A DNA stretch of 64,000 bases from an uncultured Armatimonadetes bacterium (GCA_963717145.1 OY970325.1:1984001-2048000); one strand, 5' to 3'; numbered from the stretch's first letter, positions 3,333-40,787 are shown. Numbers and translations: made by a program. Notes: generated by a model from the sequence alone, not told the origin.

Positions 3333-3361
3333 GTGACTTGGCAGGCAACCTGTGATATAAT
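3333..3361 (+). promoter_or_regulatory. Putative sigma70 promoter upstream of the riboswitch and RHS operon
   Basis: GTGACT-17 bp-TATAAT (3356-3361) with extended -10 TG. Confidence 0.55.
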
Positions 3362-3396
3362 ACAGGCGCAATCTTCGTGTCAATCCCGTCCGATGT

Positions 3397-3468
3397 GGTA
3401 GCTATGAACCGCCGTTCTGGCAATACCCTGGTCACCCGAACGGCGCGGAGCTAGTGGTGACACCGACC
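3397..3468 (+). promoter_or_regulatory. c-di-GMP-II class riboswitch aptamer
   Basis: GGTAGCTATGAA...CTGGTCAC...GAGCTAGTGGTGACACCGACC matches the recalled c-di-GMP-II pattern; stem CGCCGTTC 3410-3417 pairs with GAACGGCG 3438-3445; GGTC 3430-3433 can pseudoknot with GACC 3465-3468. Confidence 0.8.
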
Positions 3469-3621
3469 GCGGCCGGGGAGGTTTGTCGGTGACATCCAGA
3501 GGCTCATTGCATCCGCTGGCACACGTGGTGACTGTGGGGAGCAGCGGGACATGGTGCTCTGTGCGACGGGACGTAGCTCGGTAAGCCGTTACGGAACCTG
3601 TAAGTCAGTCTCTTTTGGCAG

Positions 3622-4416
3622 ATGAGGCCCGTGATAATGGAACCGTATCTTAACGCGCTGGGGCTGTTTACGCTGCTGAATCTGGCCTGGTGGACAACGC
3701 TGTACCTGATCACGAGGCTACGAACTACAGCACAGTCACATAAACCGCTCATCTTCGGAAACTTCGTCGTGACGTTTCTGTTGGGCGTTGCTTCCTCATA
3801 CGTTGCCGGCATCTTCCCTTCTCCCACAGCCTTCCACAACCTGCCCCCGTCAGACCTGATTGCGTCGTTCGCGAAACAGACAGACACGGATGTCAATGCC
3901 TACGGCATCCCCTGGGATGGATTTGACGACCAGCGGATTACGGGGCATTCCAAAGTGTGGTGGAACAACGAGAAACCGTCTGAGTTGTCCCGCACTTGCT
4001 GCAGACTCCATGTCACGCTCGACAATCCGGACGAGAGTCGGCGGCCATACGCAGGAATGTACTCCAACTTCTTCAACCCACCTAACCAGAGCTATGATTT
4101 CAGCAAATATTTGGGTCTAAGCATAAACTGCAAAGTGGAAGGGAACGAGGTTGTTTACTATATGCAGGTAGCTACCATGAATATCCATGATGATGCCTAT
4201 TATGAGTTAGAAATCCCATATAGCCAAAACGATAAGGGCTTTACGACATGTCAGCTTCGTTTTGTGGATTTCGCCCAGCCGTCGATAGAGCGTCTGCAAG
4301 CAGACTTTGAGTTGCAGCAATCGTTCAGGATCGCTGTCTTGGCGCGCCCCAGAAACAATGATGGCAAAGTGCACACAGGCGTGATATGGATCGACAGCAT
4401 TCAGCTATTTCGGTGA
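3622..4416 (+). CDS. Membrane protein (2 TM) with a C-terminal galactose-binding-like (CBM11/CIA30-like) domain
   Basis: Two hydrophobic segments, then YDFSKYLGLSINCK...LRFVDFAQP...IWIDSIQLF; the start may be ATG 3637. Confidence 0.7.
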   Translation: MRPVIMEPYLNALGLFTLLNLAWWTTLYLITRLRTTAQSHKPLIFGNFVVTFLLGVASSYVAGIFPSPTAFHNLPPSDLIASFAKQTDTDVNAYGIPWDGFDDQRITGHSKVWWNNEKPSELSRTCCRLHVTLDNPDESRRPYAGMYSNFFNPPNQSYDFSKYLGLSINCKVEGNEVVYYMQVATMNIHDDAYYELEIPYSQNDKGFTTCQLRFVDFAQPSIERLQADFELQQSFRIAVLARPRNNDGKVHTGVIWIDSIQLFR

Positions 4417-4476
4417 AACCATGAGCCTATATTCACCACTGGATAACATGAACCGATCACATGACGAGGAGGCATC

Positions 4477-7400
4477 ATGAGTACCAATGCGCGCACGGCG
4501 CGGTTATGCGCAATATGTTTGGGCCTATTGTTATTCGCTTCGGCAGCCCACGCGATTCCTGGAGACGCTGATGGCAATGGCGTGGTGAATATCGAGGATG
4601 CCAGGTGTATTGCTCGCTTCCTGGTCAACCAGATACCCGCGATTCCTCGCCCGGTGGACGCTGATGTGACCCAGGACGGCAAGGTGGACATCGAGGACGC
4701 ATTCGTCATAGCGAAACGAGTGAACGGGCAGTCTCTGATCGTGCTGGTTGCCGCTCCGATATATGGACGGGAGAGCGTGCTGCCGATTGGCGATATCGTC
4801 CGTGTCCGCGTTTTCGAACACTTCGCTCCATTCAACATCACTGGCGGAACCGTCCGCATTCGTTCAGCAAGCAAGGGCTATGACTCGGGCGATCAACACC
4901 TGACATTCGAGCGTGACGGACGTTCGCTCTACTACGATTGGCCGACCGGAGGGCTCGCACCATCTTCGGACTATGAAGTGAGCGTGGCACTGACCAACCC
5001 GGTGGGACTGGTGATGAAGGCAAGCGGAGCAGCATATGCCCCTGCCGCGAGTAGTCAGCCGGCTGCCACAGCCACACTCACCAATCGCGTCTTCGAACCG
5101 AAGTTCGTAGCGGCGAGCGTCGATGCCTCATGCCCGGCACCTGGGATTCCTCTTGAGTTCAGGCGGGTAGCGCCGAATGACCACGCTCATTACCCGTACC
5201 TCGGGCCTCTGGGAAGAGGTTGGAACCACAACTACGATATCAGCCTCGAGGAGTTCACCAACGGGAAGATCGCGTTCCACGGTCCTGAGGGGTTCAATCG
5301 GTTCTTCCAGAGCAATGCCGACGGCACCTACTCACCAACCCCGGGCGACTATGCGACCCTCACGCGGGATCCGAGCGGTGTGTATCAGCTCAAGGAGAGG
5401 GACGGTTTCATCTATTGCTTCAGACCCGACCTGAAGTTCAACTACGAACAGGACCTGAACGGCAACCGGATCAGCGGAGTGTATGATGGCTCTGGTCGGT
5501 CGGTGGAGATCAGGCATTCCTGCGGGAAGTCGCTGCATCTGGAGTACAACTCGCGGGGACGCATATCGAAGCTGACCGACCACATAGGCCGGGCAGTAAC
5601 CTTTGAATATGATACTACAGGCCAGATGCTGCTCAGGGCTACGGATCCTGCGGGAGGCGTTACCGAGTACGCTTACGTGACCCCGCAGATCTACTGCTAT
5701 GCGCTTGGGATTGTGCCCGTGGGCGGTGGCAGCAATTGCGTGAGCGCTAACCAGGCCTTGGACTACCGAATACTGACCGTGAAATACCCGGACGGCACAT
5801 TCACCCAGTATCAGTATGATACGGAAGCGCGTCTCACCAGACAGACCGGCACTTGGGGCGCTAACCCGACAAACTACAGTTACGATGCCGACGGGACCAC
5901 GCACGTGACGGACAGCGTGGGGGCACAAGTCACTCTCAGAGTCAATGACAACGGGCAGCCGCTCTCAGTAGTCGATCCGGGCGGATCGCAGACTGAGATA
6001 GACTATAATGCAGCGGGCAACCTGATCGGCGAGACTGATCCGCTTGGCCGCCTCACCCAGCTGGACTATGACTCCTCCGGCAACGTGACCAGCGTCACCA
6101 ATGCGCTCAATGAGACCGTTCAGTACGGCTACGACCTCCGTTTCAACAAGCCGTCTTACGTCACCGATCCACTTGGGCGCGAGACCAAGTTCGACTACGA
6201 CACCTATGGGCAGTTGATTGCGGCGACCTATCAGGACGGATCCGTGGAAAGTTATGCGTACGACGCTCAGGGGAATCTCGTTTCAGTCACGGACGCGGAG
6301 GGCAGAGTCACTCAGCACACTTACAGCGCTCAGGCCCTGCTGACATCGACCACCAACGCGCTGGGCAACGCCACGGCCTTTGCGTACAACGCCTTCGGCG
6401 ATCTCACAAGCGTGACGGATGCGAAGAGCCACGCGGTCGCTTTGACCAGGGATACCCTAGGCAGGCTCACGCGGCGCACTTACCCCGACGGGTCGCATGA
6501 GGACTATGAGTATGACACCGGGGGCAAGGTAAGGGCGTTCGCGAACAGGCGCGGCGAGCGGACGACGTTCGCGTACGATGCCGCAGGACGGCTGACCGAG
6601 AAGACGTACGCCTCCGGGAAAGCAGTGCACTATCAGTATGATCCGAGGGGGCTGCTGTCTCGCGTGGAAACGATATCCGGCGGAGTGACTTCCTTTGGTG
6701 CGTATTATGAGTACGATCTCGAGCGCCGGACGACCGTCGCCAAGTCCCCGGGCAAGAACTCGATGGAGACCTATGACGTCGCGTACGCCTACGATGCCGC
6801 CGGCAACCGGAAAGCAATGGTCTATCCCGACGGGTATCTGATCAACTATGAGTACGATGCGGCAAACCGGCTCAAACGGATCTCCGATTCCGTGAACAAG
6901 ACCATTGTCGCCTATGATTATGACGCCGCGGGCCGCCGAACGAAGAGGACGCTGGGGAATGGAACCTATGCGACCTACGAGTATGACACCATGGACCGGC
7001 TGACCACGCTGGTCAACTACTCTCCATCCGGCGCGGTGCAATCTCACTTCCAGTACACGCACAACAAGGCGGGCATCCGCACGTCGATGACCACGCTGGA
7101 GGGAACGCACTCTTACACATATGACAATGCTTACCAGCTCACAGGAGTTCAGTATCCCGCTGGCAGGACCGTTACTTACTCGTTCGACAAGGCCGGCAAC
7201 CGGGCAAGCGTAAATGACAATGGAGTGCCCACGACCTACGCGACCAACGCACTCGACCAGTACACCAGCGCGGGTGCGGAAACCTTCACATACGACGCCG
7301 ACGGCAACCTGGCGTCCAGCACGAAGAGCGGCTCGACTGTGAGCTACGGTTGGGACGAAGACGACCGCCTGGTGAGCGTGAGCCGGAACGGTGTTCAGAT

Positions 7401-10400
7401 CAGCTATCGTTATGACAGCCGGGGGCGACTTGTCTCGAAGACCATCGGCGGGCTGGAGACGCGCTATGTGTGGGACGGCGTCGACCTGATCGCCGAGATG
7501 AACTCCGCTGGTCAGTTGACGAAGCGATTCGTCTACGGTGCCGCGATCGATGAGATTGCCCTGGTCAGCGCAGACAGCGCGAGCTACTGGTGCCAGCAGG
7601 ATGGGCTCGGGAGCGTGATCGGTACCACGAATGGCGCGGGTTCCGTTGTCGCTACGTGCTCATACGATGTTTACGGCAACGTTCGAAGTGGAGACCTCGC
7701 GGCAGTGCCGCAAAGATTCGCGGGGATGCGGTGGGACGCGAATGCTGGCTTATACTATGTAAGGTCGAGGTGGTACAGCCCGGGAACCGGGCGGTTTGTC
7801 TCGGTTGATCCGCTGGACGGTCAGAACACAAGTAACTGCTATGCGTACTCGCGTAACAGCCCGCTCTCCTGCACGGATCCCTCGGGACTGAGAACACTTC
7901 AGTCGCAGTTCTCTCAGTTCGGTACTGGTGTCTTGCAGGTTATCGGCGGAGGCATCACGGCAGGCGTTGGCATAGCTGGAACGGCAGGCACGGCTGGGGC
8001 GTCTCTCTTCCTCACAGTCACTGGTGCGTACACGCTAGGGAGCGGGATGATGAACATAGTCAACTCATTCTCGAGTGTGGACAATTCGGCGCTGATAACA
8101 GGAGGGATATTCAGTTCGGTGTCACTGTTCAGCAACAACAAGGATGTTCATACCTGGGGAAAGATCGCCGACTACGGTCAATCGCTGCTCTCTCCATCTC
8201 TTGATAAGATTCTGTATAAGGTGCCCAATTGGCTCGCGGATCTTCCGGACATTGTCGGTGCGTTCGAAGATACTTGGGACAGTCTGGTTGACATAGGCAA
8301 GTCACTCAACGACGGTGGAAGTGGCACCATCCACCGTGCTATTGGGCCTGATAACGGCTTCGGGGGAGGCTATGGTGGAGGGGGCGGTGGAACGTGCCCA
8401 ACCTTCGTCCAGGGCGGCAACCAACGCCGGGCTTCCGAGAGCAACATTGCCGGACTATCCGGTCGAATAGAAGCCCCCTGGCCCGGCTCGCTGCTTCGGT
8501 CCGACATTCCTATCTACGGCATCGCTGCAGGAAGCGACTTCAAGAGCTACCGTGTCGAATACGGCGAAGGGACAAGTCCATCTCAGTGGCATTTGATAGC
8601 GGAGTCCGACAAGCTCCAGGAGAAGTGCCCGAGCTTCAAGGACATCTCCTGGATGCAGGGCGACCTTAACCTTGCCGGCAACCTGGCGACCTGGAACACC
8701 GGGCTCAAGAACTGGGAGCATCTGCCCTGGCATCCGGCCGAGGACGCCATCGACCTCAACGGCGTGTATACCATCCGCCTGGTCGTGACCGGGAAGGACG
8801 GCAAAGAGGTCGAGGACAAGATCACTTGCGAGGTTGGCCGGGCCATCGCCCAGTGCCTGCCCGGAATCGCGGTCAGCCCCGACAGACGCGTGACAATGCG
8901 CTTCCCGGAGCAGTCGCTCACTCATCCGTTCAGAGTGTATACCATCCTGCCGCTATCGGATGCCGGAGAGGACATGCCCGCGAAGCCCAAGGGCTTTGAG
9001 TTGGTCGGTCCGGCATATCGAGTGAGGGAGCCTGGGGACAAGTTCATCAAGGATGTTTCCCTGGAGTTCACGCCGAAAGCCGATGAGCTCTCCGGCAGAG
9101 ACGTGAAGCGCGTGGGCATGTGCCGCTATGACACCGCAAAGAAGGAATGGGTGTGGCTTGAGACCACTCGTGAGAACGGAGCATTCCTTGTAAGACTTTC
9201 AGAGCTTCCATCGCCGAGGGCGATCTACGCACTTGCATTCGACCCGAATGCTGAACGCTCTTCGCCCGCGAAGCCCGCTCAGCCGCCAGCCACGGTAGCT
9301 TCCGCAAAGCCCGGAGTCTTCGTCGATGACACATTCGAGCAGGACATGGGTTCCTTCAAGGCGCGCGACAGACTCGTTGGCGCAACACTGGCCAGGGACA
9401 ACACCGCAAGACGAGACGGCTCCTACTGTCTCAAGCTGGAGAATGAGAATCAAGGCGGCAACTTCTCCTGCACTGTTGTGGATACTCCATTTGACATCAA
9501 GGAGTATCCGCTCCTTTCATTCGACTACCGCGTCAGACCGGATGTCAAAGCTGATCTTTACCTCAAAGCCAACGGGCGCTGGTATAACGTGGGGTTCACC
9601 GATGATCCCGTCGACTATCGGCACAAGGATGTCAACATCGCAAACCTGGGGGTGATTCAGGGAGTGACCGCCGACGACAACTGGCACACCGCCAAGGTCG
9701 ATCTGAGGATGCTCTCCCAACAGACCCGTCAGACCCGAATAGACGAGATCATGGTGGCCGACTGGGACCTGGGCGGGTACATGTCGCTTGCATTCGGCAA
9801 CAACGCCCGTGGGTCCGTGCTCTACCTCGATAACATCAAGATCAGCGGCCCCACAAAGACTGCAAATAGTCCCGACGTGATTGCGGTCGACGATTTCGAT
9901 GGATCTACTACCCTGAACTCACTTGGTGGGGCGAGCGGCACCTACTCCAACCCCGGCTGCGAATACGTCAAGGCTGTAGTCGATCCCAAGTCCGGCAATA
10001 TCGGCTCGGAAAAGGGCAACCGATCGATTCGCCTGTCCTTCGATGTCACGAATCCTGATGCATATGCCGGTTACTGGACCTCCATCGACAAACTGGACCT
10101 GTCTGACTACTCGACACTGCGATTCAGGATGAGATCGGATGACAAGGACGCACCTCAGATCATTGCGGGGATACGGACTAAGAGTGGAGTAGAGGGCCGC
10201 GCACCGGTGGCGGGCTACATGTCCGCACAGAGTCAGGATGGCTGGTACGATGTGGGAGTCCCACTATCCGCAATGCGTGGGCTGTTCACTGGCCCGGATC
10301 TGGTGTCTCCTGACATTCTGTTCCTTGCCGCCAGCAACAAGGAAGGCAGTGGCAAGGGAGCAGTTCGGGTCGATGATGTCACGTTCGACCGTTCTTCTCA

Positions 10401-10914
10401 TGCGTCGGTGGCCGACTTCGAGTCCGGTGCTACCTACAGCCTGCTGGGAGGTGACCTCACAACCGGCCAGAACGGTGCTGGTTCGGTGTCTTGGGGATGC
10501 ATGCCGGACGCTTCGGCAGTCGGCAATGCAGGCAACCAAGTCTGCAGGATTTCATACGGCGGATCCATCGGTACGGACTACGGCGCGCAGGGGGGCTTCT
10601 CATATTGCTACTGGCAGTGCGATCTGAACGGCAATGACGCCAGGCCATTCAAGTATCTGTCTATGAAGGTTCGAGGTGAAAAGGGCGGCGAGACACCCAA
10701 TTTCTACCTGTGCGACGGTTCCCGTCGTGTCTGCCTCAGAGCGAGGGACACTGAGCCGATCACCACCGAGTGGAAGACCCTGCGTTTGCCGTTGTCATTC
10801 TTTGCCGATAAGGGCATCGATCTCAGCCGTCTGGACTCTCTGCAGATCGTTTTCGAGTGGACCGAGCAATCCGGGACAATATTAGTAGACGACATCAGGT
10901 TTGGCACCGACTAG
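4477..10914 (+). CDS. Secreted dockerin-RHS/YD-repeat protein with a very long C-terminal extension (Ig-like and several CBM-like domains)
   Basis: GAGGAGG RBS; signal peptide; duplicated GDADGNGVVNIEDA/ADVTQDGKVDIEDA dockerin motifs; GPLGRGW; many YD repeats; RHS core end YYVRSRWYSPGTGRFVSVDP...NSPLSCTDPSGL; domains ending LYLDNIKI, VRVDDVTF and ILVDDIRF. Confidence 0.9.
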   Translation: MSTNARTARLCAICLGLLLFASAAHAIPGDADGNGVVNIEDARCIARFLVNQIPAIPRPVDADVTQDGKVDIEDAFVIAKRVNGQSLIVLVAAPIYGRESVLPIGDIVRVRVFEHFAPFNITGGTVRIRSASKGYDSGDQHLTFERDGRSLYYDWPTGGLAPSSDYEVSVALTNPVGLVMKASGAAYAPAASSQPAATATLTNRVFEPKFVAASVDASCPAPGIPLEFRRVAPNDHAHYPYLGPLGRGWNHNYDISLEEFTNGKIAFHGPEGFNRFFQSNADGTYSPTPGDYATLTRDPSGVYQLKERDGFIYCFRPDLKFNYEQDLNGNRISGVYDGSGRSVEIRHSCGKSLHLEYNSRGRISKLTDHIGRAVTFEYDTTGQMLLRATDPAGGVTEYAYVTPQIYCYALGIVPVGGGSNCVSANQALDYRILTVKYPDGTFTQYQYDTEARLTRQTGTWGANPTNYSYDADGTTHVTDSVGAQVTLRVNDNGQPLSVVDPGGSQTEIDYNAAGNLIGETDPLGRLTQLDYDSSGNVTSVTNALNETVQYGYDLRFNKPSYVTDPLGRETKFDYDTYGQLIAATYQDGSVESYAYDAQGNLVSVTDAEGRVTQHTYSAQALLTSTTNALGNATAFAYNAFGDLTSVTDAKSHAVALTRDTLGRLTRRTYPDGSHEDYEYDTGGKVRAFANRRGERTTFAYDAAGRLTEKTYASGKAVHYQYDPRGLLSRVETISGGVTSFGAYYEYDLERRTTVAKSPGKNSMETYDVAYAYDAAGNRKAMVYPDGYLINYEYDAANRLKRISDSVNKTIVAYDYDAAGRRTKRTLGNGTYATYEYDTMDRLTTLVNYSPSGAVQSHFQYTHNKAGIRTSMTTLEGTHSYTYDNAYQLTGVQYPAGRTVTYSFDKAGNRASVNDNGVPTTYATNALDQYTSAGAETFTYDADGNLASSTKSGSTVSYGWDEDDRLVSVSRNGVQISYRYDSRGRLVSKTIGGLETRYVWDGVDLIAEMNSAGQLTKRFVYGAAIDEIALVSADSASYWCQQDGLGSVIGTTNGAGSVVATCSYDVYGNVRSGDLAAVPQRFAGMRWDANAGLYYVRSRWYSPGTGRFVSVDPLDGQNTSNCYAYSRNSPLSCTDPSGLRTLQSQFSQFGTGVLQVIGGGITAGVGIAGTAGTAGASLFLTVTGAYTLGSGMMNIVNSFSSVDNSALITGGIFSSVSLFSNNKDVHTWGKIADYGQSLLSPSLDKILYKVPNWLADLPDIVGAFEDTWDSLVDIGKSLNDGGSGTIHRAIGPDNGFGGGYGGGGGGTCPTFVQGGNQRRASESNIAGLSGRIEAPWPGSLLRSDIPIYGIAAGSDFKSYRVEYGEGTSPSQWHLIAESDKLQEKCPSFKDISWMQGDLNLAGNLATWNTGLKNWEHLPWHPAEDAIDLNGVYTIRLVVTGKDGKEVEDKITCEVGRAIAQCLPGIAVSPDRRVTMRFPEQSLTHPFRVYTILPLSDAGEDMPAKPKGFELVGPAYRVREPGDKFIKDVSLEFTPKADELSGRDVKRVGMCRYDTAKKEWVWLETTRENGAFLVRLSELPSPRAIYALAFDPNAERSSPAKPAQPPATVASAKPGVFVDDTFEQDMGSFKARDRLVGATLARDNTARRDGSYCLKLENENQGGNFSCTVVDTPFDIKEYPLLSFDYRVRPDVKADLYLKANGRWYNVGFTDDPVDYRHKDVNIANLGVIQGVTADDNWHTAKVDLRMLSQQTRQTRIDEIMVADWDLGGYMSLAFGNNARGSVLYLDNIKISGPTKTANSPDVIAVDDFDGSTTLNSLGGASGTYSNPGCEYVKAVVDPKSGNIGSEKGNRSIRLSFDVTNPDAYAGYWTSIDKLDLSDYSTLRFRMRSDDKDAPQIIAGIRTKSGVEGRAPVAGYMSAQSQDGWYDVGVPLSAMRGLFTGPDLVSPDILFLAASNKEGSGKGAVRVDDVTFDRSSHASVADFESGATYSLLGGDLTTGQNGAGSVSWGCMPDASAVGNAGNQVCRISYGGSIGTDYGAQGGFSYCYWQCDLNGNDARPFKYLSMKVRGEKGGETPNFYLCDGSRRVCLRARDTEPITTEWKTLRLPLSFFADKGIDLSRLDSLQIVFEWTEQSGTILVDDIRFGTD

Positions 10915-10942
10915 GCGGGTATGCCGCCGGGGTTGATGATCT

Positions 10943-12688
10943 ATGCGATTTAAGGAGCAACGGAAACGTCCAATCTGTCGCAGCACAGAGTCGGGCATGA
11001 GGCAGCCCGGGAAGTCCCCGGCACTGGTAGCTCTGACGCTCGGTCTGTGGCTCGGATCAATTATCGTACTTGGCAGGGACTTGTGGCCTGTAGCGATATC
11101 ACCGGGCAACATCATTCAACGCATCGTACTCATGGCGTTCTCCCTCCTGCTGATTTCCTTCTGGCTGCTCGGATCGTACTACATAAGCCTTGTGGTGTTC
11201 TACACCTGGCAGAAGAGGCTGAGACCGGGCGTGTTGCGAAGGCGACTGGCGGCAGATGAGCTTCCACGGGTGGCGATTCTGTATCCCACTTGCGACGATC
11301 TGCAACGGGAATCAGTGCTTTCGTGTCTGGATCAGGACTATCCGAGTCTCCACGTCTTTGTGCTTGACGACAGCCGCAGCAACCAGTATATGAGTGCGGT
11401 GGATGAATTGCAGGAAGAATTCGCCGGCAGACTCACTGTCATTCGGAGATCCACGAGGCAGGGCCACAAGGCTGGAAACCTGAATCATGCGCTGCGAGGC
11501 GAAGTGAGCGACTATCCCATGTTCGCTGTCATGGATGCAGACGAAAGACTCCCCCGCACTTTCACTCGCGATATGGTAGAGCTGATGTCGGACACTGACT
11601 ATGCGTTTGCGCAGGCTAGACACGACCCCAACCCGGACCAACCTACCGGTTTCGCGCGACTGATGGGACAAACCATTATGCCGTTCTGGTCGGTGCTCCT
11701 GGCCGTCAAGAACCGTTATGGCTTCGTGCCCTGTGTCGGCCATGGTGTGCTGGTATGTCGGAGCGCCTGGGAGGCGGCAGGTGGATTTCCTGAGGTGGCA
11801 AGCGAGGATATTGCGTTCTCAGCCAGGCTACTCGAGCAAGGACTCCGTGGTGTTTACGCCGATCACGTGGTCTGTTGGGAGGACTTTGCAGCATGCGCTG
11901 CCTCGTTCCGGATTCAGCAGGAACGATACGTAGCGGGCGTGTTTCAGGTTCTGACTGGCTTTTGGCCGAAGTTGCTGCGGCGGAATGACGTAAGCTGGAC
12001 CGAAAGACTGGATTTCCTGCTCGGGAGTCTTCCGCTCTATGTTCCAGTACTCTGCCTGGCGTTCATCCTGGTGAGCGGATTGGCCATCCCGCTGTGTTTT
12101 GGCAGGATTGGCACCATTACCGTGGTTGTCCATGACAGCATGTGGCGCATTCCGTACTGGCAGTCTTTTGATGGACGGTTCATGTGTCTGTGGAGGCCGA
12201 TGTTCGTGGCAGTATCGTTGCTGTTCAACCTTTCTCCCGCGCTGCCAATGTTGGCCATTGCCCTGGAAGGGCGTGTGCGCAATCCTGTGCGGTTGATCGT
12301 GGCAAGCAATGCCGTGTACATATCTACAATGCTCGCCTCGGCAACCAGCTTGGCGAGGTGCGTGATCCGTGTTCCGGTTCAGTTCCTGCCGACGGGTTCA
12401 CGGCTCACAGTGAACGGAGAACGAACCTCCGGCAGGTCTGCATCCCTTGTCGCGGAGTCTGCGTTCGCGCTTGTAGTGGGTGGAATGCTGGTCTCATCTT
12501 TGAACATCGGACTTGCCGGACTGGCGCTGTGCCCGTTGATCGGTTCATGCTGTATATCGGATGGCGGTCGTGCGCGTGCTGCGGCGTTTGCCGTATTTGC
12601 GGGCATTGTGTTTCAATTGGCGCTGGGAGTAGCCGCTTGCCATGCGCCGATTAGTATGCCGCCACTGGTCAGCTCAATTCATTTCTGA
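10943..12688 (+). CDS. Multi-pass family 2 glycosyltransferase (cellulose synthase-like)
   Basis: DDS, KAGNLN, DAD, SED and QQERY (QxxRW-like) motifs; N- and C-terminal TM helices; start uncertain (alternative ATG 10997). Confidence 0.85.
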   Translation: MRFKEQRKRPICRSTESGMRQPGKSPALVALTLGLWLGSIIVLGRDLWPVAISPGNIIQRIVLMAFSLLLISFWLLGSYYISLVVFYTWQKRLRPGVLRRRLAADELPRVAILYPTCDDLQRESVLSCLDQDYPSLHVFVLDDSRSNQYMSAVDELQEEFAGRLTVIRRSTRQGHKAGNLNHALRGEVSDYPMFAVMDADERLPRTFTRDMVELMSDTDYAFAQARHDPNPDQPTGFARLMGQTIMPFWSVLLAVKNRYGFVPCVGHGVLVCRSAWEAAGGFPEVASEDIAFSARLLEQGLRGVYADHVVCWEDFAACAASFRIQQERYVAGVFQVLTGFWPKLLRRNDVSWTERLDFLLGSLPLYVPVLCLAFILVSGLAIPLCFGRIGTITVVVHDSMWRIPYWQSFDGRFMCLWRPMFVAVSLLFNLSPALPMLAIALEGRVRNPVRLIVASNAVYISTMLASATSLARCVIRVPVQFLPTGSRLTVNGERTSGRSASLVAESAFALVVGGMLVSSLNIGLAGLALCPLIGSCCISDGGRARAAAFAVFAGIVFQLALGVAACHAPISMPPLVSSIHF

Positions 12689-12704
12689 AACGGAGGCTCT
12701 CCGA

Positions 12705-13862
12705 ATGAACTCACGCTTTATCTCGAATATCAGGGGCGTTGGCGCTGCCATATTGTTCGTGCTTGGAACCGCAGGAGCGCGAGCGGATGTCTCAATCTCA
12801 ATCACACCGGCCTCGATGACCGTCACTGCTGGTTCGGCGTTCTCAACCGACATCAGGCTTTCGCAGTTCAGCAATGTAGCGGGAGCCTTGTCGGTCACAC
12901 TCAAGTACAACCGTCGAGTTGTCCGGATTTCCCAGGTTTCCACGCCCGCCGGATCCATGTTTGCCGATAACTTCTTCGTTGATACAGCATCTTTCGCCTA
13001 CGGGAGTACGCGGATGACCACATTTCAAACCGTGGCGACGACATCTGCTCCGGCCAGCATGGTCCTGGCCACGGTACGATGGCAAGTAATCGGATCATAC
13101 GGCAGTTCTTCCTCGCTGACCGCTGAGGTGCAAACTGCGGTTGATGCTCTATTCAACCGAGTAGAGGTGCTGTCCTGGCCTTCCATTGTTCGCATAGGCG
13201 ACCTCGCGCCTCTTGCGGTTCCGCAAGCTAAGCTTATTGAGGATGAGCAACAGCTAGCCGTGCTTCCATCGGTTGTTACCCGAGTGTTCGGGGATATCCT
13301 ATATGTCGAGTCCGATGATCGGTCGTGCGGCATTCGGGTCGAACGACAGGGCCACGGTCTGCAAGTCGGTGACAGAACCAGGGTGACGGGTGTGATCCTC
13401 ACCAGTTCCGATGGCGAACGCTACATTGAAGCCACGGAAGCAGCCAAGGACGGCACGGGCCAGCTAGAGCCTGTCGGTCTCAGCAATCGTCGCATCGGTG
13501 GAGAGAACTGGTTCCACAATGAGGATAACGGGGCGGGTCAACGCGGTGTCCTTGGCGGGTTCGGGTTGAACAATATCGGCCTGTTGGTGCACACCTGGGG
13601 CAAGGTGACTCAGATGGGGCCAAACTATCTCTACATAGACGACGGCTCGTCTGTGAAGGACGGTACTTCGACGGAAGGTGTGGCAAATGTTGGTGTCCGA
13701 GTGCTCTGCAATCCTGAAGCCTACATACCAGGCGACTATCTGGGATGCACGGCCATTGTCTCTTGCTTCAGGACCGGTCCTGAGAGCATCGCTCCGCAGT
13801 TGCTCGTGTCTTCATCAGACGATATTCGCACGCATACCCCAGTTGATGGCGTCAATAACTGA
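12705..13862 (+). CDS. Secreted cohesin-like protein with a C-terminal tandem OB-like module
   Basis: GGAGG RBS before ATG 12705; signal peptide; SISITPASMTVTAGSAFSTDI...VTLKYNRRVVRISQV...LATVRWQVIG cohesin-like pattern; C-terminal LYVESDDRSCGIRV...NNIGLLVHTWGKV...YIDDGS module. Confidence 0.75.
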   Translation: MNSRFISNIRGVGAAILFVLGTAGARADVSISITPASMTVTAGSAFSTDIRLSQFSNVAGALSVTLKYNRRVVRISQVSTPAGSMFADNFFVDTASFAYGSTRMTTFQTVATTSAPASMVLATVRWQVIGSYGSSSSLTAEVQTAVDALFNRVEVLSWPSIVRIGDLAPLAVPQAKLIEDEQQLAVLPSVVTRVFGDILYVESDDRSCGIRVERQGHGLQVGDRTRVTGVILTSSDGERYIEATEAAKDGTGQLEPVGLSNRRIGGENWFHNEDNGAGQRGVLGGFGLNNIGLLVHTWGKVTQMGPNYLYIDDGSSVKDGTSTEGVANVGVRVLCNPEAYIPGDYLGCTAIVSCFRTGPESIAPQLLVSSSDDIRTHTPVDGVNN

Positions 13863-14244: not shown

Positions 14245-16896
14245 CTAAGATCCGCTGCTCTGTTCCGTCACATCCTCTGCCCGGCGGGTGCGGATCACCG
14301 GGATCGGTGTCTCGCCTTCCAACTCCGCGCCGGAGATGCCGGTGACCGAGACGCGCTTCCCAACCGGATCGGCCGGCGGAGTACCGCAAACCTTGATGCC
14401 GATGTTCCCCGAGCCATCCTGAAGGTTCGACCCGTCGTCCACGTAGAAGTATCCGCTCCCCTCGGGAGTGGCGGTGATCGTGCCCCACACCCTCACGAGC
14501 AGGCCGGTATTGTCGAGGCCAACCTTGAAGGACCGGCCGACCGTGCCAAGCGGATCGGGGAGCTCGTTGCCGGTCGACTCGACGAACACGTCCGACGCGG
14601 TGATCTGCCGCTCACCGTTCAACGTGCCGAGCGCTCCCGCGACGGTGACCTGCGCGCCCTCCGGCACGACCTTGTCGGTCGAGACTCGGATGCCCGCGCT
14701 CCGGTTGGCGGCTTCGACGTAGAATGCGCCGTTCATCTCACCGGTCCCTGCCGTCACGACCGCGTTTCCGAGTCGGGCGATCTGCCCATCAGCCACGTCC
14801 TTCAGGCTACCGATCGAGAGCATGCCGTTGCTGATATTCACGCTCACGGTCGCCGTCGCCTCGTTGCCAGGATAGTCCTCGACGACCGCCTTGAGCGCCC
14901 GCGCGCCGTCAGCGAGGTAGGTTGTGTCAATCTCCGCCGTCCATCCGCCTGAGCCGTCGAGTTCCCCGTAGCCGACCAGCGTGTCATCGGCGTAGAGCGT
15001 TACCGCCGCGACCGCGACGTCATCCCCGCACGTGCCGGTCGCGGTCACCGTGCCACTGAGGTTCGCGCCTCCCGTCGGCGAGGTGATCGAGACCGTTGGC
15101 TTCGGTGTCGTGGAGCTGATGTAGATCGGTATCTCCGCCGTACCCTGGTTGCCCGCGAGGTCCTCTGCGACCGCCTTGAGAGTCCAGTCGCCTGTGCAGT
15201 AGTCGGCATACGGAAGGTTGACGCTCCACCCGTCGAGTGCATCCGTGTCCACTGCAAGCGGATGGTCGTTCATGTAGAAGCTGACCTGGTATGCGCCGAG
15301 GTCGTCGTTGACTGTCGCTCTAACCTGGGTGTCTACGCTGACACTCCCGCCGAATGGCGGATTGTCGATAAAGACCTCTGGGGCGGTCGTATCTGCGGGC
15401 AGATCAGCGCTGATCGTGTAATATCCCAGTGTGGAGATCGGAGATGTGATGATCGCCGTGCCGGGGTCTACGGTGCCGCCGACCTTGGCCCATACCTTGC
15501 CGATGGTGTCATACCGGTAGATTGCCAGGTACTGCGTTCCTCCAAGTGCAGAGAGGTCCTCGCCATCGTAAGAGAGATCGAGCGTCGCGCCGGGCGGACA
15601 CGTACCGCTGTCGGTGGTGACATCGAACGCCTGGCCGATGTATCCGGCGGCTGGTCGTGCCTCCGGATACTCGCTTGGCTGTAAGTATGTCAGGTGGAGT
15701 TCGGGAGTCGTCGCCGTAATGCCAAACTTGGTGGTGCTGATGGCCATCATCCCGCTGGCGTTGATGTATATCGGCTGCGACGCGATGTTGAGCGTCCGCC
15801 AGCCGGACAGAGCAGACGACACCCTTACGCGGACGTAGCGTTCCCATCCGCCGGTTGGACAGGTGGCTGTACTGCCGGAGGCGGACATTAGCGTGTTGCC
15901 CCACGGCCCGATGAATCGGATGCTGCCCGCACTGTAGGGATTGCCCGCCGAATCGCGAAGCTCCGCGGTGATGACCGGGTGGCTTCCCGATCCGTTCACG
16001 GTGACCCTCAGCCGAGGCGGGTCGTTTCCCTCAGTCCACGCGCCGCCCTCTACCCAGTAGGAGTAGAAGTTCCCTGCCCTGAGCTTGTCCTTTATGTTAC
16101 CCCACCAGGTGCTCGTGTTCGGCACGGCCACCCAGGCAGAGCCGATCTTATGTACACCGCCCATGTACGGATGGTAGTCTTCCTCAGCAAAGCCCCGCAC
16201 CGGCCACCTGCTGGTGGACATCACTTCGTCCCAGGTGCCTTCCGAGTTCTTGCCGGGCCAGGAGCTATTGTATATCGCGAGGCCGTCCGGCCACGACCTG
16301 TTGTAGATGGAGCATATCTCGTTGGGAGAGATTGAGTAGGGCACACTGTCGGGATGCGCGATGAAAGCCAGACCGCTGTACAGCTGCGTCGCCGTATTGA
16401 TGCGTTGCACGAGCCTCCCGACCTTGTCCTGGCTGAAACTGCCGGAGTCGAGTTGGCCGCTGGTGTTTGCATTGCTGCCGGCGACAAGGATGTGCCCCTC
16501 GTTGAAGGTCAGTTCGTCGCTGTGCGGTGCCCATCCCTCCCATCCGATGGACTCCCCGGAGACCTCGTTATGCTCAGTCACTGCTACGAAGTCGAACCCG
16601 GCGTTCCGATAGCGCTGGGCAAGCTCCGCCTCACCAACGGCGGGATGCATCCACACCGGACTATTCAGCGGTAGGTCTGACCGTTTGTGGCAATGGAGCT
16701 GGCCGCGAAGGAGGTCCCACGGCGCGGCGTTGTCGTAGGGGCTTCCAGGCCAGGATGATGACGGTGCGATGCGAGTACTGCCCTTGGTATTGTCTATCCC
16801 GAACACATTGGAGAACCCATCCGCCGTGTCGGCGGCGAGTGGGCCTATGCACACGGCCAGGCCGAGTATGATCCAGAGTACGAGCAGCTTCTTCAT
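14245..16896 (-). CDS. Secreted PHP-like (CehA/McbA-type) metallohydrolase with Ig-like repeats and the C-terminal OB-like module
   Basis: True start MKKLLVLW at 16896 (AGGAGG RBS, ATGA overlap); RGQLHCH, FVAVTEHN, IAHP and EDYH metal motifs; two DTTAP/PTVSITSP Ig-like domains; GLLVRVWG...YVDDGS tail. Confidence 0.8.
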   Translation of the reverse strand: MKKLLVLWIILGLAVCIGPLAADTADGFSNVFGIDNTKGSTRIAPSSSWPGSPYDNAAPWDLLRGQLHCHKRSDLPLNSPVWMHPAVGEAELAQRYRNAGFDFVAVTEHNEVSGESIGWEGWAPHSDELTFNEGHILVAGSNANTSGQLDSGSFSQDKVGRLVQRINTATQLYSGLAFIAHPDSVPYSISPNEICSIYNRSWPDGLAIYNSSWPGKNSEGTWDEVMSTSRWPVRGFAEEDYHPYMGGVHKIGSAWVAVPNTSTWWGNIKDKLRAGNFYSYWVEGGAWTEGNDPPRLRVTVNGSGSHPVITAELRDSAGNPYSAGSIRFIGPWGNTLMSASGSTATCPTGGWERYVRVRVSSALSGWRTLNIASQPIYINASGMMAISTTKFGITATTPELHLTYLQPSEYPEARPAAGYIGQAFDVTTDSGTCPPGATLDLSYDGEDLSALGGTQYLAIYRYDTIGKVWAKVGGTVDPGTAIITSPISTLGYYTISADLPADTTAPEVFIDNPPFGGSVSVDTQVRATVNDDLGAYQVSFYMNDHPLAVDTDALDGWSVNLPYADYCTGDWTLKAVAEDLAGNQGTAEIPIYISSTTPKPTVSITSPTGGANLSGTVTATGTCGDDVAVAAVTLYADDTLVGYGELDGSGGWTAEIDTTYLADGARALKAVVEDYPGNEATATVSVNISNGMLSIGSLKDVADGQIARLGNAVVTAGTGEMNGAFYVEAANRSAGIRVSTDKVVPEGAQVTVAGALGTLNGERQITASDVFVESTGNELPDPLGTVGRSFKVGLDNTGLLVRVWGTITATPEGSGYFYVDDGSNLQDGSGNIGIKVCGTPPADPVGKRVSVTGISGAELEGETPIPVIRTRRAEDVTEQSSGS

Positions 16897-17723
16897 TTCG
16901 ATTCCTCCTTGCTGTCCGGGGCAGAGCCGGACGTTCCGGTCGAGGCCGTCAGCATGATCTTGTAGTTCGAGCCCACCGCGCCCGGCAGGTCCTTCCCTGC
17001 ATCCCAAACGATGTGCCTGCGGAGTCCGGGGCGCATGCCGGGGCCGATGTCCAGGGAAGTCGTCTGCGGCGTGATCGAGTATGTCGCCCCGCCGTTGTCG
17101 GACACCATCATACCGATCGTGACAGTCGGGTTCGGCGGCGACCAGAGGTCGTAGTAGACATCCACCATGTGCGAGCCGTTCCTTCGCTGGCTCGCCTGGA
17201 TGTTGTACGGCGCGAGCATCGGCGGGATGGTGAACCCGGAGGTCGAGTCCCTGATCTCGTAGCTGTTGTAGTACCACCAGACGCCGGTGATGAAGTCCAC
17301 CTTCCACGGCCGCGCCCCTATGTTCGACATCGGCAGGTTGAGCGTGATCTCGGTCGGAGTGATCGTGCCGGTCGGCGATCCGCTCGCGAACCCCCAGTTC
17401 ACCCCGTTGTCGTACGACACCCCCAGCGCCGGGCCGAAGTACCCGGGGGTCGTCACATATACCAGGACGTAGACCTTCCCCGGGACGGATATCCGCGCCA
17501 CGTAGGCTGTGTAAGGCGCGGTCGAGTACTGAGCTGCAAGCCGAATGGTCGCGTGGAAGGTCGTCCCATCGTGCCAGGCTTTCGCATATGTCATGTCGTA
17601 AGATGAGAGAGACGTGTCGCCGGACGGATCGTTGACCTCCGTGGACCACTGCTCCTGGCCCCATGCGGATGCGCCGCACGCCAAAAGCGCTGCTATGAGA
17701 AGATATGAACGCAATGCCTTCAT
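16893..17723 (-). CDS. Secreted protein; C-terminal domain homologous to the N-terminal domain of the adjacent FGE proteins
   Basis: GGGAGG RBS, signal peptide MKALRSYLL; NIQASQRR...SDNGGATYS...RHIVWDA aligns with NVQARQWQ...STDGGSTYS...RTIVWDA. Confidence 0.8.
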   Translation of the reverse strand: MKALRSYLLIAALLACGASAWGQEQWSTEVNDPSGDTSLSSYDMTYAKAWHDGTTFHATIRLAAQYSTAPYTAYVARISVPGKVYVLVYVTTPGYFGPALGVSYDNGVNWGFASGSPTGTITPTEITLNLPMSNIGARPWKVDFITGVWWYYNSYEIRDSTSGFTIPPMLAPYNIQASQRRNGSHMVDVYYDLWSPPNPTVTIGMMVSDNGGATYSITPQTTSLDIGPGMRPGLRRHIVWDAGKDLPGAVGSNYKIMLTASTGTSGSAPDSKEESK

Positions 17724-17796
17724 CAAGTCAACCTCCCTGCTTATGTCTGTGGAATCGCAACCGACCGAAACCTCGGCAAAGCGCCTACCCCCCGCC

Positions 17797-17886
17797 GTAG
17801 GAGGCGATTCCATTCGCCGACCCCCGTCCACGGCCATTCGCCGATCATCCCGCACCGACACATCGGGCATTGGAATGCCGTCCTAC
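17797..17886. repeat. GTAG-type REP doublet
   Basis: GTAGGAGGCGATTCCATTCGCCG...CGGGCATTGGAATGCCGTCCTAC, imperfect inverted pair. Confidence 0.65.
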
Positions 17887-17938: not shown

Positions 17939-19141
17939 CTAGCGGGCGATCCGGAACCCGACGCTGAAGCCGTTCCAGCTGATGTACGGGCCGTCGCAGA
18001 TGCGGTAAGCGCACCGGTCGAGGTCGTCGTCGTTGTCGTTGCCGGCGCTGCTCCAACCACCGCCGCGCTGAACCCGATAGCTGCCACTTGTAGGCCCTTG
18101 TGGATTGTTCCAGCCGCCGCTCGGAGTCTGTGAGTAGTAATTGCTACCGTACCAGTCCTTGCACCATTCCCATACGTTCCCGGCCATGTCCTGGCATCCG
18201 TAGGGGCTTACTCCGCTGGGATAGCTGCCCACAGGCGCGGTCTGGTACCTGTATGGTCCTCCACCGCCTGCCGGATTTGTATCATACCAGTTGTTGCACT
18301 TCTCGGGGTCCCACACGCCGCCCCAGGGATAGACGTTGGGATGAGTGCCGGTCCACCTCGCGGCCTTCTCCCACTGAGCCTCCGTAGCGAGATGTCCCCC
18401 AGCCCAGTTGCAGAACGCTTCGGCTTCGTAGTAGCTTACCGCGACAACAGGATGGTTGTCGGTCTGGGTGAAAGGCCGTCCGCCGTACCAGTCCTGACTG
18501 GCGGCCCAGCAGTCGGACGGCTCGGTGCGGCTGTTGGATACCTTCCAACTCCAACCCTCGCTCGACCAGTATGCCTGATGCGAGTACCCGCCTGCGTTCA
18601 TGAACTGCCGGTACTCACCCCTCGTCACCTCGTACTTCCCAATCCAGTAGCCGGAAAGATACACCGAGTGCTGGGGAAGCTCATTGGAACTGGACCAGTA
18701 CCAGTAGTATACTCCGTCATTCCCCACGCCGGAGTTTCCCATCAGGAAGCTCCCGGCGGGGACGTAGACCATCTGCCCGGGGTACACGCCGCCGGACGAG
18801 TCGTCCGCCCTCACCCGCGCCTTGCATGAGCTCCAGACTGCTGTCGGGTAGTCGGCCTTCGCGTCCCACACGATCGTCCGCCTGCCGCCCGGACGCACCG
18901 AGCCGGTATCGCCGGTGACGTGCGTCGGCGTGACCGAGTACGTGCTCCCGCCGTCGGTCGAGATCGCGACGGAGACGTACACCGTCGGGCTGTCCGGATC
19001 GGTGAGCGTGTAGGTGATCTCGACCTTGCGGGACGAGTCCTGCCACTGCCGCGCCTGGACGTTCGTCACCGTCGGCCCCACCGCCCACGCGGGCACGGCG
19101 ATGGCTAGGATCATGCCGACAATCGCGATGCGGTTTGCCAT
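17939..19141 (-). CDS. Secreted FGE-sulfatase/SUMF1 (CLec-fold) protein, paralogue 3
   Basis: Start MANRIAIV with GGAGG RBS; PAGSFLMG, HPVVAVSYYEAEAFC, TEAQWEKAAR, DMAGNVWEW, GFRIAR. Confidence 0.9.
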   Translation of the reverse strand: MANRIAIVGMILAIAVPAWAVGPTVTNVQARQWQDSSRKVEITYTLTDPDSPTVYVSVAISTDGGSTYSVTPTHVTGDTGSVRPGGRRTIVWDAKADYPTAVWSSCKARVRADDSSGGVYPGQMVYVPAGSFLMGNSGVGNDGVYYWYWSSSNELPQHSVYLSGYWIGKYEVTRGEYRQFMNAGGYSHQAYWSSEGWSWKVSNSRTEPSDCWAASQDWYGGRPFTQTDNHPVVAVSYYEAEAFCNWAGGHLATEAQWEKAARWTGTHPNVYPWGGVWDPEKCNNWYDTNPAGGGGPYRYQTAPVGSYPSGVSPYGCQDMAGNVWEWCKDWYGSNYYSQTPSGGWNNPQGPTSGSYRVQRGGGWSSAGNDNDDDLDRCAYRICDGPYISWNGFSVGFRIAR

Positions 19142-19175
19142 ACCGTACCTCCAATATGCACCCAGCCCAGCCAAC

Positions 19176-20312: not shown

Positions 20313-20382
20313 AATGTATCTCCAAAGTGCACCCGAGGTCATCAGCGCTCGTTCGCCCGCTTCCCGATCTAGCAGAGCCAGA

Positions 20383-21555: not shown

Positions 21556-21720
21556 GAGTTGCGCTCCGTTCGGCATACTGTGACGCGATCGTCGAGAGTG
21601 CCGGGGAATGCCGCATAGGTACTCTAAGAATCGGTGGTGCTGAAACACGATATCGTCGGCAGGCTGGTCGAGGTGCGAAGGAGTATGCCCGCCGCTGTTC
21701 ATCAGTGGTGCTGATACTAC

Positions 21721-38999: not shown

Positions 39000-40787
<1,788 letters not shown>

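What the first reader, a model, noticed from the sequence alone, without database searches (positions are those of the whole stretch)
3333..13862. Candidate new system: c-di-GMP-controlled operon of membrane CBM protein, dockerin-RHS-CBM giant, polysaccharide synthase-like GT2 and cohesin anchor
Seen: a promoter, a riboswitch-like leader and four closely spaced co-oriented genes; the RHS protein starts with a dockerin and the last gene has a cohesin-like domain; CBM-like domains occur in genes 1 and 2; no immunity gene follows the RHS gene. Known: cohesin-dockerin pairs assemble cellulosomes, RHS/YD repeats form a shell around cargo, and c-di-GMP commonly controls biofilm and adhesion genes. 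Inference: a surface-tethered RHS shell coupled to glucan synthesis or binding, used for adhesion or matrix building rather than as a classical toxin. I know of no described system with this combination.
Basis: partly seen in the sequence, partly recalled or inferred. Interest (0 to 1): 0.9.

Follow-up and report, generated by a model that had tools for sequence, protein, structure and literature searches.

The report
Cell-tethered Rhs capsule with swappable cargo
A gene cluster shared by scattered bacteria from several phyla pairs a likely polysaccharide-making enzyme with a giant secreted protein whose hollow shell is predicted to hold a small exchangeable cargo and to be clipped to the cell surface by a host-adapted adaptor, an arrangement that fits none of the known systems compared here.

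Summary
In detail: an Rfam c-di-GMP-II-GAG riboswitch, four tightly spaced genes, the genome's only dockerin and only cohesin of this family, three CBM-type domains, and no room for an immunity gene. The cluster is conserved. About 100 full-length homologues of the giant exist; a related GT2 lies in 48 of 56 loci with enough flank; dockerin and cohesin genes travel together.

Three things were missed. (1) The Rhs autoprotease residues are intact (89 of 92) and are followed by a 47-210 aa cassette that is replaced between lineages, as in polymorphic toxins. Here it is internal, followed by a conserved 840 aa Ig-ZU5-3xCBM module. (2) The cohesin's tail is a host-specific C-terminal module (T9SS signal, SLH, membrane tail, genome-specific repeats). 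(3) The riboswitch (0 of 14 other loci) and gene 1 are local additions.

Best reading (0.5): a portable surface system. GT2 makes a beta-glucan. The giant self-cleaves and stays held twice: the shell via dockerin-cohesin, the cargo-CBM half via glucan. Cargo activity is unproven; no cassette matched a toxin family. A purely adhesive role remains possible (0.25).

The parts
3333..3361 (+). sigma-70-like promoter match (weak)
   Evidence: 10/12 with TG; count in region not above chance
3388..3477 (+). c-di-GMP-II-GAG riboswitch aptamer; local to this genome's copy of the cluster
   Evidence: Rfam 51.3 bits, gathering 40; none in 14 other loci
3622..4416 (+). gene 1: hydrophobic N-terminus plus CIA30/CBM11-like domain; not part of the conserved core
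4477..10914 (+). gene 2: secreted giant, dockerin-Ig-Rhs shell-cassette-Ig-ZU5-3xCBM
4558..4725 (+). dockerin (aa 28-83), the only one in the genome
5092..7887 (+). DUF6531 plug, YD/Rhs repeats and Rhs core with R1098, D1111, D1134 (DPxG) autoprotease residues
7888..8394 (+). exchangeable internal cassette (aa 1138-1306); Gly-rich, amphipathic here
   Evidence: 6% identity to homologues against about 20-73% elsewhere in the protein; shared with only 2 of 91 homologues; GC3 0.59 against 0.74 and 0.70 in the flanks
8395..10911 (+). conserved C-terminal module beginning with the (C/D)PTF(I/V)Q strand
   Evidence: AlphaFold2 pLDDT 93, pTM 0.90; motif columns
8839..9252 (+). ZU5-fold domain without a catalytic His motif
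   Evidence: Z 11.3, rmsd 3.0, 126 aligned to ankyrin ZU5; columns
9868..10911 (+). two CBM11/CBM30-type domains (a third CBM-like domain lies at about 9286-9858)
   Evidence: Z 14.0 (rmsd 3.4, 161 aligned) and Z 16.9 (rmsd 2.2, 142 aligned); profile hits to CBM30 and CBM11
10943..12688 (+). gene 3: membrane GT2 polysaccharide-synthase-like protein, no PilZ
12786..13196 (+). cohesin domain of gene 4
13197..13859 (+). host-specific C-terminal module of gene 4, on about 62 mostly secreted proteins of this genome
   Evidence: 66 matches in own genome, 0 in four other hosts of the system; usually C-terminal; signal-peptide-like start in 36 of 62

Best explanation
A portable cell-surface system that couples a self-made beta-glucan to an Rhs capsule carrying a polymorphic cargo. 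Steps: (1) the GT2 polymerises and extrudes a beta-glucan (enzyme class shown by motifs; product inferred, probably 1,3-containing). (2) The giant is exported by a signal peptide and folds an Rhs shell (family match shown). (3) It cuts itself after DPxG (residues shown; cleavage inferred from characterised Rhs proteins). (4) The 47-210 aa cassette sits inside the shell while the chain leaves it to form the 840 aa Ig-ZU5-CBM module outside (inferred from size). (5) Each half has its own tether: the shell through its dockerin to the cohesin adaptor, whose tail is whatever C-terminal sorting or anchoring module the host already uses (genomic pattern shown, binding inferred), and the cargo-CBM half to the glucan (fold shown, ligand inferred). 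(6) Cassettes are replaced by recombination (shown), which points to a role in conflict or recognition: defence of the glucan coat, competition or kin labelling (inferred). In this genome the cluster has come under a c-di-GMP-type riboswitch, consistent with a sessile-state product.
For: Family: 109 proteins match the C-terminal module, most with the same dockerin/Rhs/CBM architecture. R1098, D1111 and D1134 are jointly intact in 89 of 92 full-length members. Cassettes form 72 clusters from 92 sequences. 21 of 29 scaffold pairs that are >=73% identical on both sides have unalignable cassettes, while P0008/P0061 share a cassette at 62% over 134 aa on 42-46% scaffolds. 26 of 92 cassettes have a strongly hydrophobic 19-mer against 0 of 368 control windows. 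Cassette size fits the roughly 15 kDa cargo limit reported for three-turn shells (PMC8765631, PMC13018210). GT2 lies in 48 of 56 loci with >=3 kb downstream, and in 59 of all 86. Among 43 loci with a complete 5' end and >=3 kb downstream: dockerin plus cohesin 12, dockerin only 3, cohesin only 0, neither 28; one of the 28 (L089) later proved to have a Pfam dockerin and an adjacent weakly cohesin-like, weakly PEP-CTERM gene. L012, inside the dockerin clade, lacks both and has a lipoprotein-type start. Cohesin tails: T9SS CTD (L038), 3 SLH (L055, L061), membrane tail with basic residues (L040), choice-of-anchor U (L009). Three tested tails are multicopy in their own host (66, 33, 17 matches) and at 0-1 in unrelated hosts. 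The second clade adds a GH17 with both catalytic Glu invariant, pointing to beta-1,3-glucan.
Against: No cassette matched a toxin family: 0 of 34 above cut-off in Pfam, 0 of 41 above cut-off in NCBIfam, none in 23 whole proteins. Two cassettes searched against the large database found no ordinary Rhs protein, though that search also missed known close relatives. Many cassettes are short, Pro/Gly-rich or repetitive and look like linkers. This window's own cassette falls below the hydrophobicity threshold (1.47). No immunity gene fits behind the giant in 39 of the 40 Rhs-core loci where a conserved gene follows, which is awkward for an antibacterial toxin. Rhs-less versions with the same module and GT2 exist, so the capsule is dispensable for the core function. 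The cohesin family is essentially one clade on a quick tree, so its co-occurrence with dockerin reflects few independent events. Three dockerin loci have no such cohesin anywhere in their assemblies. The GT2 product and CBM ligand are untested.
Confidence: 0.5

Rival explanations
1. Teneurin-like adhesin or matrix cross-linker. The giant links the cell to its glucan; the shell is a rigid spacer and the cassette is a relic or free linker that only has to thread through the shell.
For: No immunity gene; no toxin-family match; many low-complexity cassettes down to 47 aa; Rhs-less forms carry PKD, TSP3, BACON or other adhesin-like domains on the same module; c-di-GMP-type riboswitch here; teneurins pass an uncleaved chain through the shell (PMC13018210).
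Against: Teneurins lack the cleavage motif, whereas it is intact in 89 of 92 here. Cleavage would break a simple spacer. Several cassettes are complex and conserved above scaffold level across distant scaffolds, which a neutral linker would not give.
Confidence: 0.25
2. The C-terminal module is a synthase cofactor (BcsB-like guide, or partner of an NdvB-like cyclic beta-1,3-glucan synthase) and the Rhs and dockerin parts are passengers.
For: Module and GT2 are the invariant core. Their pairwise identities correlate across 44 loci (Spearman 0.53, permutation p 0.001; shared ancestry alone can give this). Best PDB match of the GT2 profile is BcsA (E 9e-42). Clade 2 has GH17 plus GT2, as in the cyclic-glucan synthases of PMC10237404 (abstract).
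Against: Adaptor tails include T9SS and SLH modules, which place the giant at the outer surface, away from the synthase. L013 combines a clade-1 giant with a clade-2 GT2/GH17 set, arguing against a strict protein-protein fit. It does not explain the exchangeable cassette.
Confidence: 0.12
3. An AB-type toxin: after cleavage the cassette-CBM half is released and its CBMs aim it at glucan-bearing targets (other bacteria, fungi, protists); the GT2 gives self-protection or a decoy in place of an immunity gene.
For: Cleavage would give an N-terminal variable domain on a glycan-binding C-terminus. By eye some cassettes carry papain-like or phospholipase-A2-like motifs (recalled motifs). GT2 often occupies the position where an immunity gene would be.
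Against: GT2 is kept in forms with no shell or cassette. The motif resemblances were not confirmed by any library, and the phospholipase-like Cys residues are lost in two of three members.
Confidence: 0.1

Closest known systems
Rhs/YD polymorphic toxins (T6SS RhsA, Tse5, Tc BC components; Sec-exported Rhs of Zhang et al. 2012)
   Same: Rhs shell with best PDB matches among these (E 5e-58 downward); Arg/Asp/Asp autoprotease motif; variable, cargo-sized segment directly after DPxG that is swapped between lineages.
   Different: The variable segment is internal and followed by a conserved 840 aa module; no immunity gene follows; no PAAR/VgrG/TcB parts; ZU5 is C-terminal and lacks the catalytic His, whereas PMC3482391 describes N-terminal autoproteolytic ZU5; tied to a GT2 and a cohesin adaptor.
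Bacterial teneurin-like proteins (PMC13018210) and metazoan teneurins
   Same: Sec-exported, surface-displayed YD shells with variable N-terminal anchors, patchy across phyla; teneurins lead the chain out of the shell to external domains.
   Different: TLPs end in the encapsulated toxin and have immunity genes; teneurins lack the cleavage motif. Here both an intact motif and a large external C-terminal module are present. No NHL propeller or FN-plug family was detected; the plug is DUF6531.
Mosquito SGS1 (PMC9935623)
   Same: Rhs shell with catalytic residues, hydrophobic segment hidden inside, chain leaving through the wall, CBM-type domains outside. The closest structural precedent.
   Different: Eukaryotic, no signal peptide, conserved rather than polymorphic internal segment, CBMs inserted in the shell, no synthase or cohesin.
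Cellulosomes and unconventional scaffoldins ScaO/ScaP with Rhs modules (PMC6780208)
   Same: Dockerin-cohesin tethering; Rhs and dockerin on one polypeptide; SLH-anchored single-cohesin adaptors such as ScaF.
   Different: One dedicated dockerin-cohesin pair per genome, no hydrolase set, polysaccharide synthesis rather than breakdown, adaptor tail re-fitted to each host phylum.
GT2 glucan synthase systems: Bcs cellulose synthase and NdvB/Orphan cyclic beta-1,3-glucan synthase (PMC10237404)
   Same: Synthase-type GT2; CBM-containing partner; GH17 in the second clade; c-di-GMP link in this genome.
   Different: No PilZ, BcsB, BcsC or BcsZ; GH17 is a separate gene and absent from this locus; the partner is a secreted Rhs giant.

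Membership tests
Rhs polymorphic toxin system | YD/Rhs repeats plus Rhs core with PxxxxDPxG and catalytic Arg/Asp/Asp | tested here: met
   intact in 89 of 92
Rhs polymorphic toxin system | hypervariable, exchangeable segment after the core | tested here: met
Rhs polymorphic toxin system | variable segment is the C-terminus of the protein | tested here: not met
   followed by a conserved module in 92 of 92; the set was collected through that module
Rhs polymorphic toxin system | cognate immunity gene directly downstream | tested here: not met
   28 nt gap here; <=215 nt to a conserved gene in 39 of 40 loci; 8 further Rhs-core loci have other or no downstream genes, where it is not excluded
Rhs polymorphic toxin system | cargo is a recognisable toxin domain | tested here: inconclusive
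   no family match; weak Atlas leads only, score <0.9
Rhs polymorphic toxin system | toxicity and autocleavage shown | not testable with these tools
   needs experiment
Teneurin / teneurin-like protein | FN-plug + NHL propeller + YD shell superfold | tested here: not met
   Pfam gives dockerin, DUF6531 and Rhs repeats with no room for a propeller between them; TLP structures match only the distal shell
Cellulosome | type I-like dockerin with two Ca-binding repeats | tested here: met
Cellulosome | cohesin partner | tested here: met
   through homologues: 13 of 21 match PF00963; not directly for gene 4
Cellulosome | multi-cohesin scaffoldin and many dockerin-bearing hydrolases | tested here: not met
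   one dockerin and one cohesin of this family in the genome
Cellulosome | dockerin-cohesin binding | not tested
Bcs cellulose synthase system | GT2 with D, DxD, ED, QxxRW | tested here: met
   K176, D198, D200, D289 invariant in 52; W in 30 and Y in 18 at the last position, Y in this gene
Bcs cellulose synthase system | PilZ domain and bcsB/bcsC/bcsZ genes; CelA cut-off | tested here: not met
   no PilZ; TIGR03030 44.5 bits against 699; no such genes among conserved neighbours
NdvB/Orphan cyclic beta-1,3-glucan synthase | GH17 fused to GT2 | tested here: not met
   no GH17 in this locus; separate GH17 gene in 20 of 56 loci with flank
c-di-GMP-II-GAG riboswitch | Rfam model above gathering score | tested here: met
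   51.3 against 40 bits
c-di-GMP-II-GAG riboswitch | ligand is c-di-GMP and direction of control | not testable with these tools
   the paper recalled as defining the variant was not held; genome has 5 GGDEF matches; no expression platform stood out (z -0.16)

The most novel reading that the evidence does not exclude
A 'pull-pin' armed polysaccharide coat. After self-cleavage the shell is fixed to the cell by dockerin-cohesin and the cargo-CBM half is fixed to the cell's own glucan. A grazer, predator or competitor that strips or pulls the glucan drags the polymorphic cargo out of the shell, so no immunity gene is needed. Swapping only the adaptor's tail lets the whole device move between phyla with different envelopes.
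Probability: 0.18. Interest if true: 0.95.

Novelty: categorically new. Interest (0 to 1): 0.8.

Why it matters
Rhs proteins are understood as C-terminal toxin capsules with immunity genes, or as non-cleaving adhesion scaffolds (teneurins). This family has features of both: an intact autoprotease and swappable cargo, plus a large conserved external C-terminus. It could be a bacterial model for how a toxin capsule becomes an adhesion protein, and it makes Rhs cargo release testable in a Sec-exported protein. It shows a dedicated, non-cellulosomal dockerin-cohesin pair used as a universal adapter. The adaptor tails also point to unrecognised C-terminal sorting domains in poorly studied phyla, including the 65-copy domain of this genome. 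It defines a GT2 subfamily with an unknown polysaccharide product. The parts are known; the novelty rating is for the system, and rests on ten literature searches of an open-access library only.

Tried and rejected
Complex prediction of the shell's N-terminal plug with the C-terminal module, prompted by Nitrospirales loci that keep only a plug-fragment gene beside the module: no answer, score 0.00, no evidence either way. Sequencing runs: no RNA holder listed, so co-transcription and expression are untested. Single-sequence fold of gene 4 failed (pLDDT 31). Whole-module Foldseek gave only diffuse CBM-repeat matches with TM <=0.17; the first Ig-like domain and the first CBM-like domain were barely tested by the wide search. 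Cassette searches: Pfam, NCBIfam, PDB, Atlas, two large homologue searches and 300 other genomes of the phylum gave no assignment. ZU5 as a second autoprotease: rejected, no His at the expected C-terminal motif. (C/D)PTF as an Rhs-type second cut site: possible by resemblance to X-Pro cleavage in RhsA, but the motif is also kept in Rhs-less forms and forms a strand of the module, so it is left open; Cys1460 occurs only with Cys1307 (56 of 56), so a disulfide is an alternative. A frameshift or chance fusion as origin of the long C-terminus: rejected, the architecture recurs in about 100 proteins. Gene 1 as orthologue of the small CBM genes of L007/L009/L057/L062: not supported (probability 0.6%). 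My family-specific dockerin profile missed the divergent dockerin of L089; Pfam scans of the N-termini of most other dockerin-negative loci found no further one. Earlier findings of this scan: three look-ups, nothing.


Full report
OBSERVATION. The leader is a real Rfam c-di-GMP-II-GAG match (51.3 bits against 40). The genome has one more such element, ahead of another large protein with a signal-peptide-like start, and five GGDEF matches. The promoter match is well placed but not above chance. Gene 2 carries a signal peptide, a dockerin above the Pfam cut-off, DUF6531, 13 Rhs repeat matches and an Rhs core. Gene 3 is a membrane GT2 with synthase-type motifs and no PilZ. Gene 4 has no family match of its own, but 13 of the 21 members of its family match the Pfam cohesin model. 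In the 5.37 Mb genome there is one dockerin match and one member of this cohesin family, 8 kb apart in this cluster.

THE GIANT IS A FAMILY WITH AN INTERNAL VARIABLE CASSETTE. Searching with residues 1320-2145 gave 109 proteins of 1179-3754 aa, most with the same architecture. I aligned 92 of them: those over 1,850 aa, leaving out P0065, which has no Rhs, and the partial match P0112. Mean identity to gene 2 is about 20-55% per 50-residue window along the shell, 6% at residues 1151-1300, and 31-73% along the last 840 residues. The variable stretch starts right after the Rhs cleavage motif. R1098, D1111 and D1134, the residues described as catalytic in PMC13018210 (parts 1-2 of 11 read) and PMC9935623 (passages), are jointly intact in 89 of 92. 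It ends at a nearly invariant (C/D)PTF(I/V)Q. The cassettes are 47-210 aa (median 106) and fall into 72 clusters, 61 of them singletons, with low-complexity masking on. They are exchanged rather than drifting. Of 29 scaffold pairs at least 73% identical on both sides, 21 have cassettes that do not align even unmasked; six of the eight that do align come from one group of four close relatives. P0008 and P0061 share a cassette at 62% over 134 aa on scaffolds 42% and 46% identical. This window's cassette is shared with two homologues and has lower GC3 (0.59) than its flanks (0.74, 0.70). What the cassettes do is open. 26 of 92 have a strongly hydrophobic stretch, against 0 of 368 control windows, and a few show papain-like or phospholipase-like motifs by eye (recalled motifs). 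No library confirmed any of this, and many are plainly low-complexity.

THE C-TERMINAL MODULE. With an 82-row alignment it folds as one compact unit (pLDDT 93, pTM 0.90): an Ig-like domain, a ZU5 fold (Z 11.3, rmsd 3.0, 126 aligned) and three beta-sandwiches, two of which match CBM11/CBM30-type domains (Z 16.9, rmsd 2.2, 142 aligned; Z 14.0, rmsd 3.4, 161 aligned). At about 92 kDa it cannot fit in a shell that holds about 15 kDa (PMC8765631 passages), so the chain must leave the shell, as in teneurins and SGS1. That step is inference.

SYNTENY. Scans gave 27 genome and 65 metagenome loci. I dropped 7 duplicates, leaving 85 plus the window. A related GT2 lies in 59 of 86, and in 48 of the 56 with at least 3 kb downstream. 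The giant-GT2-cohesin set occurs in genomes labelled Verrucomicrobiota, Nitrospinae, Desulfobacterium and Sedimentisphaerales, in several gene orders. In this genome's own phylum the whole module was found only here among 401 genomes; 96 others match only its third domain. The cluster has lower GC3 than four housekeeping neighbours (0.61-0.70 against 0.78-0.81) and lies within a candidate 80.7 kb island bounded by an imperfect 44 bp repeat beside tRNA-Met and a recombinase-like gene. A second clade replaces the cohesin with a GH17 gene, both catalytic glutamates invariant in 22 of 22, and an unknown gene; some of its members have lost the shell and carry adhesin-like or enzyme domains on the same module. 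The invariant core is therefore the module plus GT2. The riboswitch was found in none of 14 loci scanned, out of 92 held, and gene 1 has no counterpart.

THE ADAPTOR. Among 43 loci with a complete 5' end and 3 kb downstream, 12 have dockerin and cohesin, 3 dockerin only, none cohesin only and 28 neither. One of the 28, L089, turned out to have a Pfam dockerin and an upstream gene weakly like this cohesin family (pairwise E 6.5e-4, probability 28%) with a weak PEP-CTERM match; its nearest relative L023 is a lipoprotein without dockerin. L012, inside the dockerin clade, lacks both and starts like a lipoprotein (by eye). The cohesin family is mostly one clade on a quick tree, so these are few independent events. 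The cohesin tails differ by host: T9SS sorting domain, three SLH repeats, a membrane tail, choice-of-anchor U, or unnamed domains. Three were tested across five host genomes. The window's tail has 66 matches at home and 0 in the other four. The L007 tail has 33 at home and 0, 0, 0 and 1 weak elsewhere. The L008 tail has 17 at home, 4 in another verrucomicrobium and 0, 0 and 1 weak elsewhere. In this genome the tail domain usually ends its protein (50 of 62 matches within 67 aa of the stop) and 36 of 62 carriers have a signal-peptide-like start by a crude test. The Atlas links it mainly to Armatimonadota clusters. That these tails sort or anchor is shown only for the named families.

IMMUNITY. 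In 39 of the 40 Rhs-core loci followed by a conserved gene the gap is 215 nt or less. Eight more Rhs-core loci end or continue into other genes; no recurrent small gene was seen there.

MECHANISM. A protein that cuts itself in two and has an anchor on each half suggests the design. The shell stays on the cell through dockerin and cohesin; the cassette and CBM half binds the glucan made by the neighbouring GT2; the cassette is shielded until drawn out. Swapped cargo implies conflict or recognition. I put this at 0.5, a pure adhesin at 0.25, a synthase cofactor at 0.12 and a released AB-type toxin at 0.1. L013, which joins a clade-1 giant to a clade-2 GT2/GH17 set, suggests the link to GT2 runs through its product rather than through protein contact.

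COMPARISON AND NOVELTY. It works like an Rhs polymorphic toxin capsule, a single-cohesin cellulosome anchor and a glucan synthase with a CBM partner, but fails a defining test for each (see membership table). Ten searches of the open-access library found no description of this combination. The nearest were Rhs-bearing clostridial scaffoldins (PMC6780208, passages), SGS1, teneurin-like proteins, dockerin-type giant proteins (bioRxiv 2023.11.21.568195, passages; supplements closed), the ZU5 and Rhs survey PMC3482391 (passages from the first 300,000 characters; its additional files were not seen and could list such an architecture) and GH17-GT2 synthases (PMC10237404, abstract). PMC5737381 and PMC9481103 (passages) said nothing on the GAG variant's ligand. 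Most subscription papers were not searchable.

VERDICT. Real, conserved and more unusual than first proposed; function untested. Interest 0.8.

Noticed in passing
G000:C1:1943978-2024700 (window -40022 to 40700): Imperfect 44 bp direct repeat bounding about 80.7 kb beside tRNA-Met (40713-40786) and a recombinase-like ORF (38996-40753); the stretch holds this cluster, a second Rhs gene, another recombinase-like ORF and restriction-modification-like genes (annotations of these by eye). Candidate integrated island.
   Followed up: partly
window 13197-13859 and about 62 other ORFs in G000: An unnamed roughly 200 aa domain ends many secreted proteins of this genome; no Pfam or NCBIfam match. Candidate lineage-specific sorting or surface-attachment domain.
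   Followed up: partly
L007:13139-13537 and L008:14986-15216: Two more unnamed host-specific C-terminal domains, 33 and 17 matches in their own genomes; several verrucomicrobial tails end in an F(Y/F)RV motif.
   Followed up: partly
L016, L018-L021, L058, L090 (about 250 aa gene before the module gene): Nitrospirales-type loci keep only the first roughly 190 aa of the Rhs shell as a separate gene with a lipoprotein-like start, always ending at the same position.
   Followed up: partly
L009:2875-3483 and 3518-9232: Natural split: dockerin plus Ig domain as one gene, the Rhs part with its own signal-peptide-like start as the next.
   Followed up: no
L005:1659 onward (G000:C1:5338773): The genome's second c-di-GMP-II-GAG element precedes a large protein with a signal-peptide-like start and short hydrophobic repeats.
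   Followed up: no
window 17939-21702, - strand: Three tandem paralogous genes; the one scanned has a formylglycine-generating-enzyme-like domain (PF03781), and all share an N-terminal domain also seen in the gene at 16893-17870.
   Followed up: no
window 2209 to -5137, - strand: Divergent 2448 aa ORF that looks by eye like an M6 metalloprotease with FG-GAP repeats.
   Followed up: no
L111:5335-9561, L112:5732-10111: The third domain of the module occurs, often twice, in TPR-containing proteins of about 1400 aa in 96 of 400 other genomes of the phylum; the two examined lie among glycosylation-type genes.
   Followed up: partly
L091:7127-11002, L028:4253-12541: Partial or whole versions of the module carry an alpha/beta hydrolase or GH43/BNR domains instead of a shell, suggesting it displays varied passengers.
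   Followed up: no
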